From IMG/VR virus record IMGVR_UViG_2675903366_000007: a DNA stretch of 16,884 nt; one strand, 5' to 3'. The translations under genes and the position numbers were made by a program. Shown here in pieces: positions 1,874-12,557 of this stretch; within the stretch, counting starts at the first letter, position 1; each line of letters starts with the position of its first letter. Below the pieces are notes generated by a model. The model was not told where the DNA came from. It saw only the letters and a program-made list of their open reading frames with translations, and did no database searches. Origin of the DNA: a virus (taxonomy: Duplodnaviria > Heunggongvirae > Uroviricota > Caudoviricetes).

Positions 1874-3607
1874 TTAAAGCGAGCGGATCCCGTAGGACTC
1901 AATGTGATCAGACAGCGTGTCTTCTTTCTCGTACAGCATGGCTCTGCCAACCGCCATAATCAGCGCAACTGCACCATCGATTTTGTTTTCCGCCTGCTCC
2001 TTGACGGGCTTCACCACATCATCGTTACCCGGAATGGTTTTGCCGACCACGTTGCCGATACACCAGGTCATGATGGGATTGCCGTCATGATGAAAGCGCC
2101 CCGATTCAATCGCCGCTTCCAGCTCTTTCATCGGATCGGACATGTTGGTGTAGTTCTGAATGATGGTGACGGGGTTCAGGTCTTCATCAGCAAGGTCATG
2201 TGACAGCCCGGTCGCCCCGAAGGGGTCGATAGGTGACTCACTGACCGGGCTGATTTTGTTCGCCGCTTTGGCCTCTTCGAGGATGTAGCGATAATCCACC
2301 TCCGCACCATCGGTAACGGTCAGAACGCCCATTTTCACCCATTTCTGAAAGCGTTCGGCTGTCCGGCGATCTTCATTTTTCTCGACGCTGTACACCGTGT
2401 CATACGGTACCCAGAAACGCGGGGCCACACTGTAGTAATGCGTTTTACCGTCAATCTCGCGGGTATAAAGTCGCGCCATGCTGTTCATATCCAGCTTACG
2501 GGCCAGGTCAAAGGCCAGAATGCACGGCTGCCCCTCGAACTGCTCAAGGGTCAGTGATTTATCCTCGCAGCTCTGCCAGCTCACCAGGTTGAAATACGCC
2601 GAACGCGCCGACACCCAGATATTGAGGTGTTTTGTTTTAAAGACGTTTGCCAGACGGGCGTTATTTTTCGCACGCTGCTGCTGACTTAACAAAAATTCGC
2701 GATAAACCGACACGCCAATATTCGGGTTAGCTTTTTCCAGCACCTGCGGGTCGGTCCAGTCATCGCCTTCGTCAACGGTATAGATGATCCCGAACAGTTC
2801 ATCGTTGGGTACCGACCCGTTGAGCATCTCGATAACTTCCCGTCGCTTGTCGTAGCACGGCCCCTCAATGTTGTACCCGGCAGTAGTAATGGCCCACATC
2901 AGTGGCTGACGTCGCGCCCCCATCCCGGTAAGCATCGTGGTGTAAAGCGCATCGGTGGCGTGCTCGTGATATTCATCCACCACCGCACAGTGGGGTGATG
3001 AACCATCACCGGGGTTACCGATCAGCGGTTCAAACCGCGCGCCATCCTCCGGACGATTCATGTTTGAGGCGTTAACCTCAATCCCGAACGCTTCCGTCAG
3101 CATGGGTGTGCGTTTACACATCAGTCGCGCCGGGCGAAAGACTTCCCACGCCTGTTTCTCTGTCGTGGCACCGGAATACACTTCCGCGCCAAACTCGTTA
3201 TCACAGGCAAAACAATACAGGGCAACACCGGCAGAGATTGCCGATTTGCCGTTCTTACGGGGGATTTCGGTATACACCTCCCGGAAGCGGCGCAGCCGGG
3301 ACCCTTTATTGACCCAGCCAAACGCACAGCAGACCACAAATAGCTGCCACGGCTCCAGCGTGATGGGCATCCTCTTGAATGCCCACTCACCCTTGGTGTG
3401 CGGCAACAGCTGAATAAATTTGGCGGCCCGTTCAGCCAGGTCCTTGTCGAAGCGGTAACGAAACGACTTACTTTTTTCCGCCATCAGGTCATCAAGATGG
3501 CGCTGGCAGGCCTGAATCACAAACTGGCAGGCCACAATCTTTCCGCGCACAACATCACGGGCATACTGATTGGCAGCATTTACGTTGGGGTAAGATTTCC
3601 GGCTCAT
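1874..3607 (-). CDS. terL: Terminase large subunit
   Basis: 577 aa with a Walker-A-like [11 protein letters not shown] overlap with terS. Located upstream of the portal. Overall resemblance to HK97/Terminase_1-type large terminases. Confidence 0.93.
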
Positions 3608-4098
3608 GACTCGATGATTTTCAGAAACGGGTTAGTGGCTTTCTTCTGCCCCGCCAGGCCAATCAGACGCTGGCGGCTGCTGGGGTCGAGTCCGAGCATT
3701 GCCCCCGTGCTGCTCATCTCGGACTCCTGTTCTTTTTTGGCGGTCAGCTCCGGATTTTTGACCCTGCCGCCCATTGCACCGGTGATGGTGTTGCCCTGTA
3801 TGGCAATATTTTTCACGGCACGTCGCCAGAACTCATAGGCCACGCACCACCGCTCAAGCACCGCGAGGTCAGTCACGCACAACAGGCCCTGACCGCAGAG
3901 TTCTTTGGTTGTCAGTTGCCACATGATCGTGGCGAGAGGGAGATTTTCTTCTGCGAACCACTCCGGTGGCTCAACACCTTTGATGGGCGTAAAAACAGGT
4001 TCATCTTTATTCAGGGCTCGCTTGCCGGGGTTTCCGGCCAGCGCCTTGCGCGCCGTTGGCTTGGGGCGACGCCCGGAACGCCCCGCCGTTCCAGCCAT
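3604..4098 (-). CDS. terS: Terminase small subunit, P27-like family
   Basis: The N-terminal basic segment [22 protein letters not shown] is typical of P27-family small terminases. ATG at 4098 with AGGAG 8 nt upstream is preferred over the GTG at 4107 used by the ORF track. The stop overlaps the terL start. Confidence 0.8.
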
Positions 4099-4137
4099 AT
4101 GCGGCACTCCTGGTTAAATTTCATTTTTCGCGGGTAT

Positions 4138-4197
4138 AAAAAAACGATGGGGCGGGCAGTCCGGAAGACGTCAGGTCACAGGGATTTGACCCGCCCC
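4138..4197 (-). terminator. GC-rich hairpin plus T7 tract between HNH and terS; also the most likely location of cos
   Basis: GGGGCGGG (4149-4156) pairs with CCCGCCCC (4190-4197) around a 33-nt loop. On the minus strand the stem is followed by ATCG and then TTTTTTT (4144-4138). The loop is long for a canonical intrinsic terminator. Confidence 0.4.
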
Positions 4198-4224
4198 TCC
4201 CCCACATACAGTTGAGAATTATTA

Positions 4225-4575
4225 TCACTTTAACCGTTCACGGGCCGTCTTCGCCTTATGGCAGGGCCAGCACAGACTCTGCAGATTACTGTCGGCATCA
4301 GTGCCACCATGCGCTTTAGGAACGATGTGGTCAACGGTTTTCGCCTCACGCACCACACCAGCATGCAGACATGACTGACATAAACCTTTGTCACGCTTCA
4401 GGACGCGCTCGCGGATACCGTCCCACTTCGAACCATAACCGCGCTGATGACGAGACTGGCCCGGCTTGTATTGCTTCCAGCCTTCGCCTTTGTGGCTTTC
4501 GCAATAGCCTGACGGGTCTGTGGTTGTAGAGTGGCAGCCGCGAACACGGCAGGCTTTTGGGATTCGTGGGGGCAT
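4225..4575 (-). CDS. HNH endonuclease (terminase-associated type)
   Basis: DHIVPKAHGGTDADSNLQSLCWPCHKAKT is an HNH motif flanked by Cys pairs (CRVRGC, CQSC). ATG at 4575 is preceded by GGAG. The longer track ORF (to 4674) adds an unlikely N-terminal extension. Confidence 0.9.
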   Translation of the reverse strand: MPPRIPKACRVRGCHSTTTDPSGYCESHKGEGWKQYKPGQSRHQRGYGSKWDGIRERVLKRDKGLCQSCLHAGVVREAKTVDHIVPKAHGGTDADSNLQSLCWPCHKAKTARERLK

Positions 4576-4690
4576 ATGTACTCCAATGAAGAAGCCACCG
4601 ACATAGCCTCCTCCATTCATAGTGAAACTATTTTCATCTACCCAGTAATGAATTCTTTGAAGAGTCGAGATCAATACAACTCACTAATGG

Positions 4691-4732
4691 GGAGGCTTGT
4701 CTCACACGTGAAACAAGCCTCCTGTTTGATTT
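4691..4732 (+). terminator. Hairpin plus U-rich tract, repeat copy A
   Basis: GGAGGCTTGT (4691-4700) pairs with ACAAGCCTCC (4713-4722), with an inner 3-bp extension. It is followed by TGTTTGATTT on the plus strand. Confidence 0.35.
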
Positions 4733-4792
4733 ACTGGACAGTATAGGACTGCAGAATGCCTTCCTCACTCGAATAACATCAATTAAGGAGGT

Positions 4793-4861
4793 TTAACACG
4801 GGTCAGTAGTGGTATTGCGGCAGCCGCGAACGCGGCAGACTTTCGGGATTCGTGGGGGCAT
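4793..4861 (-). pseudogene. Duplicated 5' fragment of the HNH gene (22 codons then stop)
   Basis: The minus-strand ATG at 4861 has the same RBS context as the real gene. It encodes MPPRIPKVCRVRGCRNTTTDPC-stop, compared with MPPRIPKACRVRGCHSTTTDPSGYC in the intact copy. Confidence 0.7.
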
Positions 4862-4973
4862 ATGTACTCCAATGAAGAAACCAGCGAAATAGCCGCCTTC
4901 ATTCGTAGTAAACCTTCTTCATCTACGCAGTAATTAATTCTTTGAAGAGTCGAGATCAATACAACTCACTGAT

Positions 4974-5017
4974 AGGAGAGGTTTGTCCAACACGTTGGAC
5001 AAGCCTCCCGTTTGATT
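4974..5017 (+). terminator. Hairpin plus U-rich tract, repeat copy B
   Basis: GGAGaGGTTTGTCCAAC pairs with GTTGGACAAGCCTCC, giving about 14-16 bp with one bulge and one G-U pair and a 4-nt loop. It is followed by CGTTTGATTT. Confidence 0.35.
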
Positions 5018-5083
5018 TACTTGACACTATAGAAGGACAGAATGCCTTCCTCACTCGAATAACATCAATTAAGGAGGTTCAAC

Positions 5084-5206
5084 ATGTTTCATTCCACAAG
5101 TCATCAGTCTGTAATTATGGTAGCATCAGTTTGTGCCACATACCTTTTCCGCTTCACTTTGAGTATGATTCATTTCTACCTGACCGGTTCGCCTCTATCT
5201 TTCTAA
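5084..5206 (+). CDS. Candidate 40-aa hydrophobic peptide (below the ORF-track size cutoff)
   Basis: TAAGGAGGT lies 6 nt before the ATG at 5084. My translation is MFHSTSHQSVIMVASVCATYLFRFTLSMIHFYLTGSPLSF-stop. It is antisense to the 3' end of Rz1. Repeat copy A carries ACG where copy B carries this ATG. Confidence 0.3.
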   Translation: MFHSTSHQSVIMVASVCATYLFRFTLSMIHFYLTGSPLSF

Positions 5207-5429
5207 TCCCCGCTTTGTCAATATTGCATTGTCCCAACGCTGACAACAGACTCACATTCAACTCCAGACTGGCACCATACGTCAGCGGATTGGGTATAAA
5301 CGGTACAGGAGTATCAGAAGTCAGGCTGGCTGGCAGTGGTGCCACCGGAGTGCTCACGTAAACTGTCCGCGTACTTCCGCAACCGATCAGCAGCGGCAAC
5401 AGGCACAGGACGTGAAGCACAGTCATCAT
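5154..5429 (-). CDS. Rz1: o-spanin (Rz1-like outer-membrane lipoprotein), overlapped architecture
   Basis: Internal start MMTVLHVLCLLPLLIGC has a lipobox (LIGC) followed by a Pro-rich mature part. It starts inside Rz in the +1 frame and extends 160 nt past the Rz stop. Confidence 0.7.
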   Translation of the reverse strand: MMTVLHVLCLLPLLIGCGSTRTVYVSTPVAPLPASLTSDTPVPFIPNPLTYGASLELNVSLLSALGQCNIDKAGIRKIEANRSGRNESYSK

Positions 5430-5706
5430 CCGCAATGACCATTTTGATATCTTCCTGGGTTCTCTGTGACTCCAGTGCGATCTGCTGTTTTGCATGCTGG
5501 TTAGCCTCCAGAACTGTATTGAAGATTTGTAGTGATTGCAGGACGTTATTGGTAATGGCTGTTGCTGATTCAGCATTTCGTACAGTCTCATCAGCACGTT
5601 TCTTTTCGCGCTGATATTTGCTGTAGTAGTGGTTGGCAGACCAGATGAAAGAACCGATGACGGTAAAGAAGAATGCAGCGATAACCAGCTTATAGCTCAA
5701 CTTCAT
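5314..5706 (-). CDS. Rz: i-spanin (Rz-like)
   Basis: 130 aa with an N-terminal TM helix (LVIAAFFFTVIGSFIW) followed by a coiled-coil-like periplasmic part. It overlaps the endolysin stop by 17 nt and contains the Rz1 start. Confidence 0.8.
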   Translation of the reverse strand: MKLSYKLVIAAFFFTVIGSFIWSANHYYSKYQREKKRADETVRNAESATAITNNVLQSLQIFNTVLEANQHAKQQIALESQRTQEDIKMVIADDDCASRPVPVAAADRLRKYADSLREHSGGTTASQPDF

Positions 5707-6715: not shown

Positions 6716-6744
6716 TTGCGTACGCGTTAGCGCTTTTGTATATT
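6716..6744 (+). promoter_or_regulatory. Candidate sigma70 promoter for the plus-strand cassette
   Basis: TTGCGT (6716-6721), a 17-nt spacer, then TATATT (6739-6744). It would place the transcription start near 6751, upstream of the ATG at 6778. Confidence 0.35.
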
Positions 6745-6777
6745 CAGCTTAATCCTATGTATTTATGGAAAAATAAG

Positions 6778-7809
6778 ATGAGCAAGCGTGAAATCAAAAC
6801 TAAAAAAATAATCTATAAAGAAGTCACAATGTCAGGTGTGTCAAAGACGCTCCAGTCGATGCTAATGGAGCTGCTCAAAAAACACACTAAAGCAGATTCT
6901 CGCAAGGAAATGGTCAACCCAGGAGAGGAAGACTTATTCCGATTAATTAATAAACATGAAGAGTTCCAGGGAATGCTGTTTTGCCAGCTTGTTGCCTTCG
7001 AACCAGGCCATTCTCAACGCTATATACAGCTTAAAAATGATGCTGAATCTTATGAAATAAGATCCGTAACATCAGATGAACTTTCTAAAATGACTGTTGA
7101 AGAAGCTGAAGAAGCACGCACAGAGAGGGAACAGGTTGTGCGTGAGTTTATAGATTCAATTCTTTATTTCGGTGTATTTGGTAACAGCATCGTAGTAATG
7201 CAATCCAGATCTCTTACAACAAGAGAACTTGAAACACATCTGAAATGGTTACTTGGCTCTTTAAGCAATTACTTAGGCGCAGAAAACATCTTAAAAGTTT
7301 CCGATAAGCCCAAAGAAGAGATCATTGAGGAAGTTCTAAAACGACCTGTAAAATCAGTTTCTATAGGTGCCCCTGTAACTGCCGTTAACGAATTTAGTCA
7401 AGGAAGCAAAAGCCCAGGCTGGGTTCCCGCAGGAACTGCCTCTGAACTCCTTAAAGCTATGTTAGCAGAGAAATGGGAAAGCTTCTTACGTAGTAGCAAG
7501 CTTGAAGATTGTCTTGATGACGCTAATCTTGAAGTAACGCTGAAAATCACATACAAGAGGAAAACTTCTGATTCAGGAGAAAGGATGTTAAGAAATCTTG
7601 TTGACGCTACCAGACACTACCCGGATGATGACGTCGTTGTTGAAATGGTTGGTGGGACGCGTTTAACTGGTAAAGAGATTCGTTTATGGAATACTGTTAA
7701 ACTCACAACTTACAATAGCTTAATTGATGAACATGAACTATATGGCCAAATGCATGATTGGATGGTCGCTCTGATCAACAATGGAGAAATAGAAGAGACC
7801 GATGAATAG
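6778..7809 (+). CDS. Cassette protein A: soluble, acidic, partly coiled-coil protein of unknown function (343 aa from ATG 6778)
   Basis: Long uninterrupted ORF in a low-GC island, antisense to all neighbours. Alternative starts are TTG 6736 (track), ATG 6757 and ATG 6829; 6778 is chosen because it lies downstream of the candidate promoter. I can recognise no catalytic motif. Confidence 0.7.
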   Translation: MSKREIKTKKIIYKEVTMSGVSKTLQSMLMELLKKHTKADSRKEMVNPGEEDLFRLINKHEEFQGMLFCQLVAFEPGHSQRYIQLKNDAESYEIRSVTSDELSKMTVEEAEEARTEREQVVREFIDSILYFGVFGNSIVVMQSRSLTTRELETHLKWLLGSLSNYLGAENILKVSDKPKEEIIEEVLKRPVKSVSIGAPVTAVNEFSQGSKSPGWVPAGTASELLKAMLAEKWESFLRSSKLEDCLDDANLEVTLKITYKRKTSDSGERMLRNLVDATRHYPDDDVVVEMVGGTRLTGKEIRLWNTVKLTTYNSLIDEHELYGQMHDWMVALINNGEIEETDE

Positions 7810-8341
7810 AGAGGCTGCTAAGTGCATATCCTACCAACAACCAAGTAGAGCATTCCACTTGGTTGTTGTAGTATTGCTTATGTCTACAGCCTGGTTTATC
7901 GCCAATAAGTACATCATTTTAACATCCATTCCTTGGGGCGTATTAACTATCCTCATCTTACCAATTGCAAGTAGCGCAACCCTGTTTCATAAGTTATCTG
8001 AAACCCAAAAAAACGTTGCTGAGGATTTATCTCGCAATGAACAAAGAAGGTTAACAAGGCTTATTAAAGAAAAAAGCCGGGCAACATTATTCATGCTTAC
8101 GCTACAAATTTCGATAATAATTTTTGTGGCATTGATTAGCCTTGGCAATGAGTCCTCTTTTGTTCAACAGCACATTCATACTATAAGTAAATTCGTTGTT
8201 TGTGCTTTGGTTTTTTCACTATACTCATTAATCCCTGTTTTACTAGGAGTAAAGGAAGTCATTGATTTTGAAGGGTTAATAAAAACACGAAAAACATTAA
8301 ATAAGCGTAAAAAATCTGCATTATCCAAGCTTGGGAAGTAA
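7802..8341 (+). CDS. Cassette protein B: 179-aa integral membrane protein, four predicted TM helices
   Basis: The start overlaps the gene A stop by 8 nt (ATGAATAG). Hydrophobic segments lie at roughly aa 17-38, 43-62, 94-115 and 128-150. There is a charged central loop and a Lys/Arg-rich tail. Confidence 0.7.
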   Translation: MNREAAKCISYQQPSRAFHLVVVVLLMSTAWFIANKYIILTSIPWGVLTILILPIASSATLFHKLSETQKNVAEDLSRNEQRRLTRLIKEKSRATLFMLTLQISIIIFVALISLGNESSFVQQHIHTISKFVVCALVFSLYSLIPVLLGVKEVIDFEGLIKTRKTLNKRKKSALSKLGK

Positions 8342-11248: not shown

Positions 11249-11742
11249 TAAGCCCCCACGTAATTCCCTGACAGATACCATTCATCACCCGATACAGCGC
11301 GCTTGCTGCTTTTCCGTAAGCACAGCTCACGACGCGCCAGAAAGTTGTTTCGTTCTGGCTGGGAGTGACTTTCACGGAATGCCGCCATCCACACCGTTGC
11401 AGCACGACGGTATAACCCCCTCGACTCCAGTTCTTCAGCCTGGCGGGTCAGGCATAAAATCACCCGGGGATCGTTAGTGCCGACATAGAAATTGCGCACA
11501 GGTCTGGTTTCACGAACTGGTTGTGGTTCCGGCTCCTGCGCTCTATCAGTCAGGCGCGGGAAATGTCTGCGTGTATCTCCTTCACAACGGTGAGCCACAC
11601 GCCCACTCTGACGTAACTTGCTTGCTGACTGCAGAACGCGCTGCCGTGAGTAATCTGCAAAAGCATCCGCAATGTCTGCGGAAGTACACCCCGGATGGGC
11701 TTCAATGAATTTCTGAACGTCATTCAAAAGACTCATGATCAC
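11248..11742 (-). CDS. PerC-family regulator domain protein with an N-terminal winged-helix-like extension
   Basis: QAEELESRGLYRRAATVWMAAF...ERNNFLARRELC resembles the PerC/Pch core motif (..GL.RRAA..W....R....C) as I remember it. Overlaps the stop of the replication gene. Confidence 0.55.
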   Translation of the reverse strand: MIMSLLNDVQKFIEAHPGCTSADIADAFADYSRQRVLQSASKLRQSGRVAHRCEGDTRRHFPRLTDRAQEPEPQPVRETRPVRNFYVGTNDPRVILCLTRQAEELESRGLYRRAATVWMAAFRESHSQPERNNFLARRELCLRKSSKRAVSGDEWYLSGNYVGA

Positions 11743-12557
11743 CCCCTGAATCCTGCCGGGATCTGGCTGTAGTCCACGTTGTCGTAACTGGCTTTGAAGT
11801 ACGGGTCCTCGCGTCTGGCTGCAGATACCGCAGGAACTTCCCAGGATTCTTCGAAATGACGATCCGGACCAAAGAACGTGACAGCCTGTTTCACAAATTG
11901 TGTGCCGCTGTTACCCATCGCAGATACCCAGCCCGCGTAGCGTTTCACACCTTCCAGCATGGTTTCGGGGTTTACCCCCTCATTCAAACGGGCTTTCCAG
12001 GCTTTGAAGGCTGCAGATTTTGAATTGCCACCAGCACGTTTGGGATATGCCAGCCATGCCTGCTCAAACTCCGGAGAGTATTCCGGTCGGTTTGAACGAA
12101 CTCGCACGGACTCATCAACTGATGCACCAACAGCTATTGGTTCATTGACTGATTCTTTGACTGGTTCAAAAGAGTGACTGGTTCTGGGTGAATCTCCTGC
12201 ACTACCCCCTGATGCAACTCCTGCACTACATGGTGAATTTGCTGCACCAGATAGTGAATTATTTGCACTACCCCCTAGTGAATCTCCTGCACCATCCAGA
12301 TGAAGGAGATAGATATTACTTGAGTTACCTTTTTCACCTTTCCGGGTGACTTTTTTTACCAGCCCGGACTCACAAAGGGCCGCAATATGATTCATCACAG
12401 AACGTTTGCTAATCTCGCACTGGTCAGCAATATGCTGATAGCTGGGCCAGCACTCCCCCTGATCGCTGGCATTATCAGCCAGCTTGATCAGAACCAGTTT
12501 TCGCAATGGATTACCCACTCGAATTTTCATCGCTTTAACCATCAGCTCCATACTCAT
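11739..12557 (-). CDS. Replication initiator (O-like; N-terminal HTH, central iteron-encoding linker)
   Basis: N-terminal wHTH (LRKLVLIKLADNASDQGECWPSYQHIADQCEISKRSVMNHIAAL). A low-complexity Gly/Ser/Ala linker is encoded by the iterons. It occupies the position of lambda O. GGAGG lies 6 nt before the ATG at 12557. Confidence 0.7.
   Translation of the reverse strand: MSMELMVKAMKIRVGNPLRKLVLIKLADNASDQGECWPSYQHIADQCEISKRSVMNHIAALCESGLVKKVTRKGEKGNSSNIYLLHLDGAGDSLGGSANNSLSGAANSPCSAGVASGGSAGDSPRTSHSFEPVKESVNEPIAVGASVDESVRVRSNRPEYSPEFEQAWLAYPKRAGGNSKSAAFKAWKARLNEGVNPETMLEGVKRYAGWVSAMGNSGTQFVKQAVTFFGPDRHFEESWEVPAVSAARREDPYFKASYDNVDYSQIPAGFRG
12188..12292. repeat. Candidate replication-origin iterons inside the O-like gene
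   Basis: Copies are GTGAATCTCCTGCAC (12188), GATGCAACTCCTGCAC (12211), GTGAATTTGCTGCAC (12233), GTGAATTATTTGCAC (12254) and GTGAATCTCCTGCAC (12278). Spacing is 21-24 bp. An A/T-rich stretch follows at about 12300-12360. Confidence 0.6.

What the first reader, a model, noticed from the sequence alone, without database searches (positions are those of the whole stretch)
4512..5083. Diverged 286-bp tandem duplication upstream of the HNH gene, with a hairpin that covaries between the two copies
SEEN: unit A (4512-4797) and unit B (4798-5083) abut exactly. Each contains the first ~21 codons of the HNH gene, its RBS and about 220 nt of upstream sequence; only copy A continues into an intact gene. 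The copies are roughly 85-90% identical by eye. The noncoding blocks (35, 35 and 42 nt, all perfect) are better conserved than the coding remnant. The hairpin differs between copies by paired substitutions that preserve pairing. Copy A inner stem T-A and C-G (4702/4711, 4703/4710) become C-G and A-T in copy B (4987/4996, 4988/4995), and a C/A mismatch in A becomes C-G in B. INFERENCE: the divergence argues against an assembly artefact or a very recent slip. Conservation of structure suggests a functional RNA or DNA hairpin. On the plus strand it reads as a terminator-like element (U-rich tail TGTTTGATTT); on the minus strand it would be a structure in the late mRNA ahead of the packaging genes. 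The duplication could also reflect recombination between two related phages at the lysis/packaging boundary.
Basis: seen in the sequence. Interest (0 to 1): 0.45.

Follow-up and report, generated by a model that had tools for sequence, protein, structure and literature searches.

The report
Duplicated T7/SP6-type promoter cassette
The repeated 286-base unit in this prophage carries look-alikes of the promoters used by T7-type and SP6-type lytic phages, then a conserved RNA hairpin and a tiny gene. It is therefore probably a cassette switched on by an invading phage's own RNA polymerase; clusters of such promoters were reported in 2006, and I found no functional test of them.

Summary
The tandem duplication is real: 4512-5083, period 286, 86.8% identity. 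It is not an assembly artefact. The same junction (AAC|ACGGGTC) occurs in 19 complete E. coli genomes and 7 viral contigs. It is nevertheless a rare variant of a single-copy module found in about 1,150 E. coli genomes.

Each unit holds, in order:
- a T7-type promoter look-alike;
- an RNA hairpin starting at the predicted +2, whose core in copy B is 27/27 identical to intergenic hairpins of SP6-group phages;
- an SP6-type promoter look-alike;
- an unstructured leader and a 9-nt Shine-Dalgarno.

After copy B only, a 40-codon hydrophobic ORF (5084-5206) follows. The hairpin covaries across 16 alleles, and its G·U pairs fit plus-strand RNA.

Klebsiella prophages carry a parallel module with the hairpin and promoter type of Klebsiella SP6-like phages. 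SfV lacks the module entirely.

Most likely this is a cassette transcribed by a superinfecting phage's RNA polymerase. Its function (abortive infection or exclusion through the small peptide) is inferred, not shown. Tandem T7-like promoters in enterobacterial prophage-like islands were described by Chen & Schneider (2006). The duplication itself looks like a neutral by-product of recombination.

The parts
4512..4797 (+). Unit A: the inner copy, next to the intact HNH gene and not followed by an ATG.
   Evidence: TRF; alignment.
4798..5083 (+). Unit B: the outer copy, followed directly by the ATG of ORF40.
   Evidence: TRF; alignment; junction AAC|ACGGGTC shared by all two-copy loci.
4225..4575 (-). 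Intact HNH endonuclease gene (116 aa). Its first 64 nt lie inside unit A.
   Evidence: Pfam HNH PF01844, E 4.6e-15; annotated as HNH in SfIV and E. coli relatives.
4793..4861 (-). Remnant of the HNH 5' end in unit B (MPPRIPKVCRVRGCRNTTTDPC*). It runs across the junction to a stop.
   Evidence: Read from the sequence. The same remnant with the same DPC* ending is in L002.
4672..4694 (+). T7-type promoter look-alike A (CAATACAACTCACTAATGGGGAG), positions -17..+6, predicted +1 at 4689.
   Evidence: PWM built from 17 annotated T7 promoters: 23.3 bits. Natural leave-one-out range is 21.6-40; the next best site in the window scores 3.7; the shuffle maximum is 15.2. Pattern search: 0 expected by chance.
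4957..4979 (+). T7-type promoter look-alike B (CAATACAACTCACTGATAGGAGA), predicted +1 at 4974.
   Evidence: 21.7 bits. BLAST of the box hits T7-group phages at 3-7 places each.
4690..4723 (+). Hairpin A (GGGAGGCUUGUCUCAC...GUGAAACAAGCCUCC), with one C/A mismatch.
   Evidence: -21.3 kcal/mol, z -3.6; covariation.
4975..5009 (+). Hairpin B. Its core GGTTTGTCCAACACGTTGGACAAGCC is of the SP6-group type.
   Evidence: -23.5 kcal/mol, z -5.1. 27/27 identical to Proteus phage PmP19 and 96% to PP1 and F5M1D. Nine related hairpins lie on the SP6 coding strand.
4729..4751 (+). Degenerate SP6-type promoter look-alike A (ATTTACTGGACAGTATAGGACTG).
   Evidence: 19.9 bits, just below the natural SP6 range of 20.2-37.1. 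All inner copies score 17.4-19.9.
5015..5037 (+). SP6-type promoter look-alike B (ATTTACTTGACACTATAGAAGGA), predicted +1 at 5032.
   Evidence: 30.3 bits, inside the natural SP6 range. 2 mismatches to ATTTAGGTGACACTATAGAAG, with 0 such matches expected by chance.
5038..5083 (+). Leader and Shine-Dalgarno of copy B (TAAGGAGGT at 5070-5078, 5 nt before the ATG). The copy-A equivalent is 4752-4797, with its SD at 4784-4792 and no ATG.
   Evidence: 30/32 leader columns are invariant among 32 distinct units (partly biased by how the loci were found). The leader is not significantly structured. The inner-copy SD has decayed to ACGGAGCTT in most two-copy loci.
5084..5206 (+). ORF40: MFHSTSHQSVIMVASVCATYLFRFTLSMIHFYLTGSPLSF, a small hydrophobic peptide and the presumed payload.
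   Evidence: Intact and 40 codons long in all 55 loci. In the C-terminal half there are 7 synonymous and 3 non-synonymous changes in this frame, against 1 and 8 in the overlapping Rz1 frame. The module boundary relative to SfV falls at its stop codon. Hydrophobicity.
5154..5429 (-). Rz1 (o-spanin). Its last ~17 codons are encoded antisense to ORF40.
   Evidence: Lipobox LLIGC in the translation; annotated Rz1/LysC in relatives.

Best explanation
The 286-bp unit is a compact plus-strand expression cassette assembled from regulatory parts of T7-supergroup lytic phages. It sits between the lysis genes and the HNH/terminase genes of an SfIV-like temperate phage.

Anatomy (shown). Reading 5'->3' on the plus strand, the unit holds:
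1. a T7-type promoter;
2. an SP6-group-type RNA hairpin beginning at the predicted +2;
3. an SP6-type promoter;
4. a ~50-nt unstructured leader;
5. a 9-nt Shine-Dalgarno;
6. after the outer copy only, a 40-codon hydrophobic ORF.

The window holds no recognisable sigma-70 promoter for this ORF and no ORF of single-subunit RNA-polymerase size.

Mechanism (inferred). The cassette is silent in the lysogen. The hairpin plus U-rich tract may additionally stop stray host transcription from the left. When a T7-like or SP6-like phage infects, its own RNA polymerase recognises the look-alike promoters, transcribes rightwards, and ORF40 is translated from the strong Shine-Dalgarno. The peptide is probably membrane-active and harms the infected cell or the invader (abortive infection or exclusion). 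Read-through could also reach the plus-strand cargo genes 1.6 kb downstream.

The duplication. It is a rare structural variant that arose once by illegitimate recombination (junction AAC|ACGGGTC, from just before the ORF40 ATG to HNH codon ~22). It has since been reshuffled by homologous recombination. It adds a second T7-type promoter and hairpin upstream, while the inner copy is losing its SP6-type box and its Shine-Dalgarno. I regard the duplication itself as neutral.
For: Promoter identity:
- The PWM scores (23.3/21.7 bits on the T7 model, 30.3 on the SP6 model) lie within or at the edge of the ranges of real promoters. They are far above the next best sites in 16.9 kb (3.7 and 5.6) and above all shuffles (T7 promoters from the annotated record; SP6 promoter set picked out by a core-motif search of the SP6 genome).
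- BLAST of the T7-type box returns, besides the prophage relatives, almost only ~37-41-kb podophages of Yersinia, E. coli, Salmonella and other enterobacteria, at several places each. Some of those sites are annotated 'promoter'.

Hairpin:
- 16 alleles, 89.7% of cells paired, 12 double-change cells in 3 pairs, 0/500 shuffles, slid controls 36-50%.
- G·U asymmetry of 27 against 6 favours plus-strand RNA.
- The core is identical to intergenic hairpins of SP6-group phages.
- SP6 itself has 9 such hairpins on its coding strand. Three sit directly upstream of SP6 promoters and others upstream of Shine-Dalgarno sequences.
- The SP6 gene 37 leader resembles the window's leader.
- The T7 phi10 transcript likewise starts with a stem-loop at +1, followed by leader, SD and ATG.

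Parallel module:
- Klebsiella prophages carry a T7-type box, the hairpin, and CAATAGTGGCGAGTATAGAA. The latter matches the hairpin-plus-promoter unit after the RNA polymerase gene of lytic Klebsiella SP6-like phages.
- This is followed by a Shine-Dalgarno and a 37-38-aa hydrophobic ORF.

Discrete module:
- SfV has only 26 nt between HNH and Rz1.
- The extra DNA in SfIV and the window runs from just right of the HNH ATG to about the ORF40 stop codon.

Payload:
- ORF40 is intact in 55/55 loci.
- Its C-terminal half is constrained in its own frame, not in the Rz1 frame.
- It is hydrophobic.
- The Shine-Dalgarno is kept next to the ATG but has decayed in most inner copies.
- No sigma-70-like promoter is found in 4100-5500.

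Duplication:
- The junction is identical in all two-copy loci.
- 19 of 5,426 complete E. coli genomes carry the junction, against ~1,150 with the module.
- Inner copies always have weak SP6-type boxes.
Against: - No experiment shows that any phage RNA polymerase uses these sites. The T7-type boxes score at the very bottom of the natural T7 range, and some alleles (O157 type, 15.9 bits) fall below it.
- Among the relatives, the promoter boxes are not clearly more conserved than their flanks: 0.87-0.92 against 0.90 mean pairwise identity.
- The N-terminal half of ORF40 shows no coding signature. Segregating sites by codon position are 9/9/4.
- ORF40 has no homologue outside close relatives and no family hit.
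- The SfIV allele of ORF40 is only weakly hydrophobic.
- A hairpin plus U-tract right after the T7-type start could terminate much of that transcript before the ORF.
- A single chromosomal copy must act within the few minutes before a T7-like phage degrades host DNA (my own knowledge of T7 biology).
Confidence: 0.55

Rival explanations
1. Functionless relic. A piece of T7/SP6-like phage regulatory DNA was captured by a temperate phage through illegitimate recombination and is simply carried along. The promoter look-alikes, hairpin and ORF40 have no present role, and the duplication is one more neutral rearrangement.
For: - The hairpin and leader are near-copies of SP6-group sequences, as expected after capture.
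- Promoter boxes are no better conserved than their flanks.
- The N-terminal half of ORF40 lacks a coding signature.
- SfV does without the module.
Against: - The module combines promoter types of two different phage groups.
- It is present in about a fifth of complete E. coli genomes.
- It keeps hairpin pairing through compensatory changes.
- It keeps the Shine-Dalgarno only where an ATG follows.
- It has a counterpart in Klebsiella prophages carrying the promoter type of Klebsiella phages.
- The ORF40 C-terminal half is constrained in its own frame.
Confidence: 0.2
2. Hijack for the prophage's own benefit (satellite-like). The invader's RNA polymerase is used to transcribe prophage genes on the plus strand, such as the cargo between holin and Q or antisense RNA against the lysis genes. 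ORF40 would be incidental.
For: - The promoters point towards the variable plus-strand cargo slot 1.6 kb downstream. In the window this slot holds a 357-aa plus 179-aa cassette, and in L042 the Kiwa defence system.
- As I recall it, Chen & Schneider 2006 proposed that such promoters drive a few phage-related genes. Only the citation was seen; the paper could not be read.
Against: - Many loci with the module have no plus-strand cargo downstream.
- The only constant downstream feature is ORF40 with its strong Shine-Dalgarno.
- The intervening 1.6 kb is antisense to the lysis genes.
Confidence: 0.12
3. The hairpin is a host-polymerase intrinsic terminator on the plus strand, or a structure in the minus-strand late mRNA, unrelated to phage polymerases.
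For: - The copy-B hairpin is called terminator-like by the consensus scan.
- The stems are stable on both strands.
Against: - The scan's count does not exceed the shuffles (2 found against 1.5 expected), and copy A is not called.
- There is no plus-strand gene upstream to terminate.
- The G·U asymmetry argues against the minus strand.
- The U-rich tail overlaps the SP6-type box.
- The hairpin sequence, not only its shape, matches SP6-group hairpins.
Confidence: 0.1
4. The duplication is an assembly or sequencing artefact.
For: None beyond the general risk that attaches to repeats.
Against: - The copies differ at 13% of positions.
- The same junction is present in 19 complete E. coli chromosomes and in 7 independent viral contigs with different allele combinations.
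Confidence: 0.01

Closest known systems
Tandem T7-like promoter regions in enterobacterial prophage-like islands (Chen & Schneider, Nucleic Acids Res 2006;34:1133; citation seen, paper not held)
   Same: Two or more T7-group promoter look-alikes lie in tandem within a few hundred bases. They sit in prophage-like DNA of E. coli and Shigella with no cognate RNA polymerase gene. Here there are 4 sites in 366 bp, and the module occurs in O157:H7 and in Shigella phages.
   Different: I could not read the paper, so identity of the loci is unverified. What I recall of its abstract (2-3 promoters within 150-620 bases, islands of 4-13 kb, link to the sit island) is from memory. I cannot say whether it covers the 286-bp duplication, the link of the hairpin to SP6-group hairpins, ORF40, or the Klebsiella counterpart.
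Intergenic hairpin-plus-promoter units of SP6-group phages (Molineuxvirinae)
   Same: The hairpin core is the same (GTCYAACRYGTTGGAC). The order is the same: hairpin, then promoter, then leader and Shine-Dalgarno. The strand relative to transcription is the same.
   Different: Here the unit sits in a temperate siphovirus-type prophage with no SP6-type polymerase. It is preceded by a T7-type promoter and drives only a 40-codon ORF.
T7 class III promoter expression unit (phi10 leader, as used in pET vectors)
   Same: A promoter, then a stem-loop starting at +1, an unstructured leader, a strong Shine-Dalgarno and an ATG.
   Different: The sequence of the stem-loop and the leader differs. The T7-type boxes here score at the bottom of the natural range.
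Morons of lambdoid phages (e.g. bor/iss downstream of Rz)
   Same: An autonomous insertion sits between the lysis and packaging genes, antisense to late transcription, and is absent from the close relative SfV.
   Different: Classical morons carry their own sigma-70 promoter and are expressed in the lysogen. No such promoter is detected here.
Small hydrophobic toxins of type I toxin-antitoxin systems, and engineered phage-triggered suicide cassettes (Djordjevic et al. 1997, from memory)
   Same: A short hydrophobic ORF behind a strong Shine-Dalgarno, with a logic of expression only upon infection.
   Different: No antisense RNA antitoxin was identified, toxicity is untested, and the trigger would be promoter recognition by the invader's polymerase.

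Membership tests
T7-group (Studiervirinae) phage promoter | A 23-bp match (-17..+6) scoring within the range of bona fide T7 promoters. | tested here: met
   23.3 bits (4672) and 21.7 bits (4957), against a leave-one-out range of 21.6-40 for 17 annotated T7 promoters. The values sit at the low edge. The next best site scores 3.7 and the shuffle maximum is 15.2. Some alleles in relatives score 15.9, below the range.
T7-group (Studiervirinae) phage promoter | Specific initiation by a T7-type RNA polymerase. | not testable with these tools
   Needs in vitro transcription or 5'-end mapping after infection.
SP6-group (Molineuxvirinae) phage promoter | A 23-bp match scoring within the range of SP6 promoters. 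| tested here: met
   Copy B (5015) scores 30.3 bits, against a leave-one-out range of 20.2-37.1. Copy A (4729) scores 19.9 bits and falls just below, as do all inner copies at 17.4-19.9.
SP6-group intergenic RNA hairpin | Palindromic core GTCYAACRYGTTGGAC closing a 12-14-bp stem on the transcribed strand. | tested here: met
   Copy B is 27/27 identical to PmP19. There are 9 copies on the SP6 coding strand. Copy A has a diverged core (GTCTCACACGTGAAAC) that keeps pairing except for one C/A mismatch.
Rho-independent terminator (plus strand) | A G+C-rich stem followed directly by a U-tract. | tested here: inconclusive
   Copy B is called by the scan and copy A is not. The number found does not exceed the shuffles. 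The U-rich tract overlaps the SP6-type box.
Tandem T7-like promoter islands (Chen & Schneider 2006) | At least 2 T7-group promoter look-alikes in tandem in prophage-like DNA, without a cognate RNA polymerase gene. | tested here: met
   Four sites on one strand within 4672-5037. The largest ORF in the window is 577 aa (terminase), so there is no ORF of single-subunit RNA-polymerase size, about 880 aa. Identity with the published loci is not verifiable because the paper is not held.
Type I toxin / small membrane toxin | A small hydrophobic peptide with a membrane-spanning segment. | tested here: inconclusive
   The best 19-aa Kyte-Doolittle window is 1.67 (window), 1.83 (Kp4864) and 2.31 (PDP110P1), but 0.90 in SfIV.
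Type I toxin / small membrane toxin | A cis- or trans-encoded antisense RNA antitoxin, and demonstrated toxicity. | not tested
   There is no Rfam hit and no sigma-70-like promoter on either strand in 4100-5500. Toxicity needs an experiment.
Known anti-phage defence systems (PADLOC) | A protein match to a catalogued system. | tested here: not met
   ORF40 and the 357-aa and 179-aa plus-strand proteins have no PADLOC hit.

The most novel reading that the evidence does not exclude
The cassette is a minimal, protein-free sensor of T7- and SP6-family phages. By mimicking their promoters, and an SP6-type mRNA hairpin, a temperate phage makes the invader's own RNA polymerase transcribe a 40-aa membrane-active peptide that aborts the infection. 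The transcript may also read through into the adjacent defence-gene slot. The promoter type co-varies with the lytic phages of the host genus: SP6/K1-5 type in E. coli and Shigella, Kp7/F5M1D type in Klebsiella.
Probability: 0.3. Interest if true: 0.8.

Novelty: new member of a known kind. Interest (0 to 1): 0.55.

Why it matters
If phage polymerases do fire these promoters, this would be a natural defence or exclusion device whose sensor is a DNA sequence rather than a protein. Escaping it would be costly for the invader, because escape requires changing promoter specificity genome-wide. It is carried by about a fifth of complete E. coli genomes, including O157:H7. It would also explain why lytic-phage regulatory sequences persist in temperate phages. 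It is directly testable with commercially available T7 and SP6 polymerases and standard coliphages. For annotation, the 'Rz1-HNH intergenic region' holds an unannotated 40-codon gene, and the Rz1 C-terminal tail is a by-product of it.

Tried and rejected
- Rfam, at gathering thresholds and at E<=1: no family.
- Both genome-contig scans returned nothing, so distribution across species representatives is unknown.
- ORF40: no PADLOC or Pfam hit, and no homologue beyond close relatives, either in 5.8 billion proteins or by tblastn against phages.
- An 80-nt junction query meant to count two-copy genomes was confounded, because the tool joins separate pieces. It did uncover L070, a single-copy locus with an extra small gene. 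I replaced it with 45-nt megablast junction queries.
- Leader RNA structure or Shine-Dalgarno sequestration: not significant, z 0.76 and -0.04.
- 'Promoter boxes more conserved than flanks': not borne out.
- Coding signature in the N-terminal half of ORF40: absent.
- Retrieving Chen & Schneider 2005 and 2006 failed. The citing papers give only the reference, or a passing link to the sit island.
- Literature searches for a tested function of such promoters, or for phage-polymerase-triggered defence, found nothing relevant.
- An sRNA or type I antitoxin promoter on either strand: none detected.
Full report
**1. The observation**

Tandem Repeats Finder reports one strong array in the window: 4512-5084, period 286, 2.0 copies, 86% matches, score 878. 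A MAFFT alignment of 4512-4797 against 4798-5083 gives 249 identical of 287 columns, with two compensating single-base indels. The genes here are on the minus strand:
- portal, 439-1680;
- large terminase, 1874-3607;
- small terminase, 3604-4107;
- HNH, 4225-4575;
- Rz1, 5154-5429;
- Rz, 5314-5706.

Two details need correcting. First, the coding remnant (57/66) and the noncoding part (192/221) are equally conserved overall. Second, the copy-B hairpin coordinates are off by one; the true pairs are 4988/4997, 4989/4996 and 4987/4998.

**2. Not an artefact, but a rare variant**

The window resembles Shigella phages SfIV and SfV and many E. coli prophages. About 1,150 of 5,426 complete E. coli genomes match the region. 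Most have one copy, for example O157:H7 (L003). Some have two, for example strain B-JRPT-4119 (L002).

A scan of viral contigs with the 42-nt block found 53 loci. Seven of them have two copies, 286-287 nt apart. Every two-copy locus has the same junction...TT[C/T]AAC|ACGGGTCAG..., so the duplication arose once.

A 45-nt query across the commoner junction allele hits 19 complete E. coli genomes. The window's own allele hits none. Single-copy alleles such as L020, L026 and L044 read like A-left/B-right recombinants, which suggests collapse and exchange by homologous recombination.

**3. What the unit really is**

On the plus strand, each unit contains CAATACAACTCACT[A/G]AT(A)GG... followed, after the hairpin, by ATTTACT[G/T]GACA[G/C]TATAG....

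I built position weight matrices from two sets: the 17 promoters annotated in the T7 record, and 10 promoter sites that I picked out of the SP6 genome with a core-motif search and curated by hand (that record annotates no promoters). Results:

| Model | Site (start, strand) | Score (bits) | Natural leave-one-out range | Next best in the 16.9-kb window | Maximum in 100 shuffles |
|---|---|---|---|---|---|
| T7 | 4672 (+) | 23.3 | 21.6-40 | 3.7 | 15.2 |
| T7 | 4957 (+) | 21.7 | 21.6-40 | 3.7 | 15.2 |
| SP6 | 5015 (+) | 30.3 | 20.2-37.1 | 5.6 | 14.6 |
| SP6 | 4729 (+) | 19.9 | 20.2-37.1 | 5.6 | 14.6 |

Degenerate consensus searches give the same sites, with zero expected by chance. A 33-nt BLAST of the T7-type box returns, apart from the prophage relatives, almost only ~37-41-kb podophages of Yersinia, E. 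coli, Salmonella and other enterobacteria. These match at several places per genome, and some of the sites are annotated as promoters.

**4. The hairpin**

It begins at the predicted +2 of the T7-type box and ends just before the SP6-type box.

Covariation across 16 distinct alleles:
- 89.7% of cells pair.
- Three pairs show changes on both sides (12 cells).
- No shuffle out of 500 reaches the observed pairing or covariation score.
- Sliding the partner by one to three columns drops pairing to 36-50%.

Of the 37 non-Watson-Crick cells, 27 are G·U on the plus strand and only 6 on the minus strand. The selected structure is therefore plus-strand RNA, the strand the promoters would transcribe.

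The copy-B core GGTTTGTCCAACACGTTGGACAAGCC is 27/27 identical to an intergenic hairpin of Proteus phage PmP19. It is 96% identical to hairpins in Pectobacterium phage PP1 and Klebsiella phage F5M1D. All three belong to the Molineuxvirinae, the SP6 group.

SP6 itself has nine such hairpins on its coding strand. Three lie directly upstream of SP6 promoters. Others lie upstream of ribosome-binding sites, and the gene 37 leader (…TATGAATGACATTAACTAAGGAGGTAACATG) resembles the window's leader (…CGAATAACATCAATTAAGGAGGTTCAACATG).

The T7 phi10 transcript likewise starts with a stem-loop at +1, followed by leader, Shine-Dalgarno and ATG. No Rfam family matches.

**5. The payload**

The 42-nt perfect block is the leader plus a 9-nt Shine-Dalgarno (TAAGGAGGT). 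In copy B it sits 5 nt before an ATG at 5084. That ATG opens a 40-codon ORF ending at 5206.

- The ORF is intact and 40 codons long in all 55 loci examined.
- In most two-copy loci the inner copy, which lacks an ATG, has a decayed Shine-Dalgarno (ACGGAGCTT).
- Inner copies always have a sub-threshold SP6-type box.
- SfV has only 26 nt between HNH and Rz1. Aligning SfV, SfIV and the window shows that the extra DNA runs from just right of the HNH ATG to about the stop codon of ORF40. The whole cassette, ORF included, therefore behaves as one discrete insertion, and the last ~17 codons of Rz1 are merely its antisense.
- In that overlap, changes among 17 alleles are 7 synonymous to 3 non-synonymous in the ORF40 frame, but 1 to 8 in the Rz1 frame. 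The N-terminal half of ORF40 shows no coding signature.
- The peptide is hydrophobic and has no homologues beyond close relatives.
- No sigma-70-like promoter is found on either strand in 4100-5500.
- The leader is not significantly structured.

**6. A parallel module elsewhere**

Lambdavirus PDP110P1 and several Klebsiella prophages carry a comparable module next to the end of Rz1:
- a T7-type box (ATTAAGACTCACTATTAGGAAGG);
- the same hairpin core;
- then CAATAGTGGCGAGTATAGAA;
- a Shine-Dalgarno;
- a 37-38-aa hydrophobic ORF.

The hairpin-plus-box stretch is 86-90% identical over about 50 nt to intergenic sequences of more than 20 lytic Klebsiella SP6-like phages. In phage Kp7 it lies right after the RNA polymerase gene, at the position where SP6 has its own hairpin and promoter. 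The second promoter type therefore tracks the lytic phages of the host genus. In these phages the neighbouring gene is not HNH. In some E. coli loci an extra gene separates HNH from the cassette. The cassette is thus independent of HNH.

**7. Interpretation**

Shown:
- the anatomy;
- the similarity to real promoters;
- the hairpin covariation and its strand;
- the discreteness of the module;
- the single origin and rarity of the duplication.

Inferred:
- the promoters are used by the RNA polymerase of a superinfecting T7- or SP6-like phage;
- ORF40 is the effector;
- the outcome is abortive infection or exclusion.

Weak points:
- The T7-type boxes score at the low edge of the natural range, and lower in some alleles.
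- The promoter boxes are not more conserved than their flanks.
- The leader's conservation is partly biased by how the loci were found.
- The N-terminus of ORF40 is unconstrained.

An alternative is that read-through matters. The plus-strand slot between holin and Q holds variable cargo. In the window this is a 357-aa plus 179-aa pair, and in L042 it is Kiwa. However, many loci have no such cargo.

The duplication adds a second T7-type promoter and hairpin, but otherwise shows decay of the inner copy. I regard it as a neutral by-product.

**8. Relation to the literature**

[quoted passage not shown] I saw the citation and one review linking it to the sit island. The paper itself is not held, so anything further about its content is from memory.

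The cassette fits that description: tandem T7-group promoter look-alikes in prophage DNA without a polymerase gene. I therefore file it as a new member of a known kind. I found no paper that tests the function of such promoters.

Noticed in passing
window 6736-8341 (+): A two-gene plus-strand cassette (357 aa, then a 179-aa protein with hydrophobic segments) sits between holin and antiterminator Q, antisense to the late genes. In relatives the same slot holds different cargo, including the Kiwa defence system KwaA/KwaB (L042) and an OmpC-like porin (L005). The window's pair has no PADLOC hit and only a sub-threshold Pfam hit, so it is a candidate uncharacterised defence pair.
   Followed up: partly
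window 5154-5206 (-) / L066 436-774: The C-terminal tail of the o-spanin Rz1 after ...DKAGIRKIE is encoded antisense to ORF40. It differs completely in SfV, which lacks the cassette. Substitutions there are mostly non-synonymous for Rz1, which suggests the tail is dispensable.
   Followed up: partly
L063 (phage SP6) 493, 6093, 6264, 7071, 8547, 9383, 14255, 17752, 30569: There are nine copies of a conserved hairpin core, GTC[T/C]AAC[A/G][T/C]GTT[G/A]GAC, on the SP6 coding strand. Six carry a U·G pair that fits only that strand. Several lie directly upstream of promoters or ribosome-binding sites. I did not find its function in the papers I could reach.
   Followed up: partly
L003 3400-4000 (E. 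coli O157:H7): In O157:H7 the cassette and ORF40 are followed by a remnant of the SfIV-type Rz1 3' end, and then by the iss/bor lipoprotein gene on the same strand as the promoters.
   Followed up: no
L070 517-711 (-), also L014/L027/L037/L049: Some loci have an extra 64-aa minus-strand gene inserted between HNH and the cassette. The left boundary of the conserved cassette is therefore about 25 nt right of the HNH ATG.
   Followed up: partly
window 12188-12292: An array of 21-24-nt repeats (about 4.6 copies, 62-73% matches) lies inside a 272-aa minus-strand ORF (11739-12557). By analogy with lambda O, these may be origin iterons. Not examined.
   Followed up: no
window 4108-4224: The short gap between the small terminase gene and HNH is where the SfIV and SfV genome records end, 58 nt beyond HNH. 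The cohesive or packaging end of this phage type probably lies here, outside the repeat.
   Followed up: no
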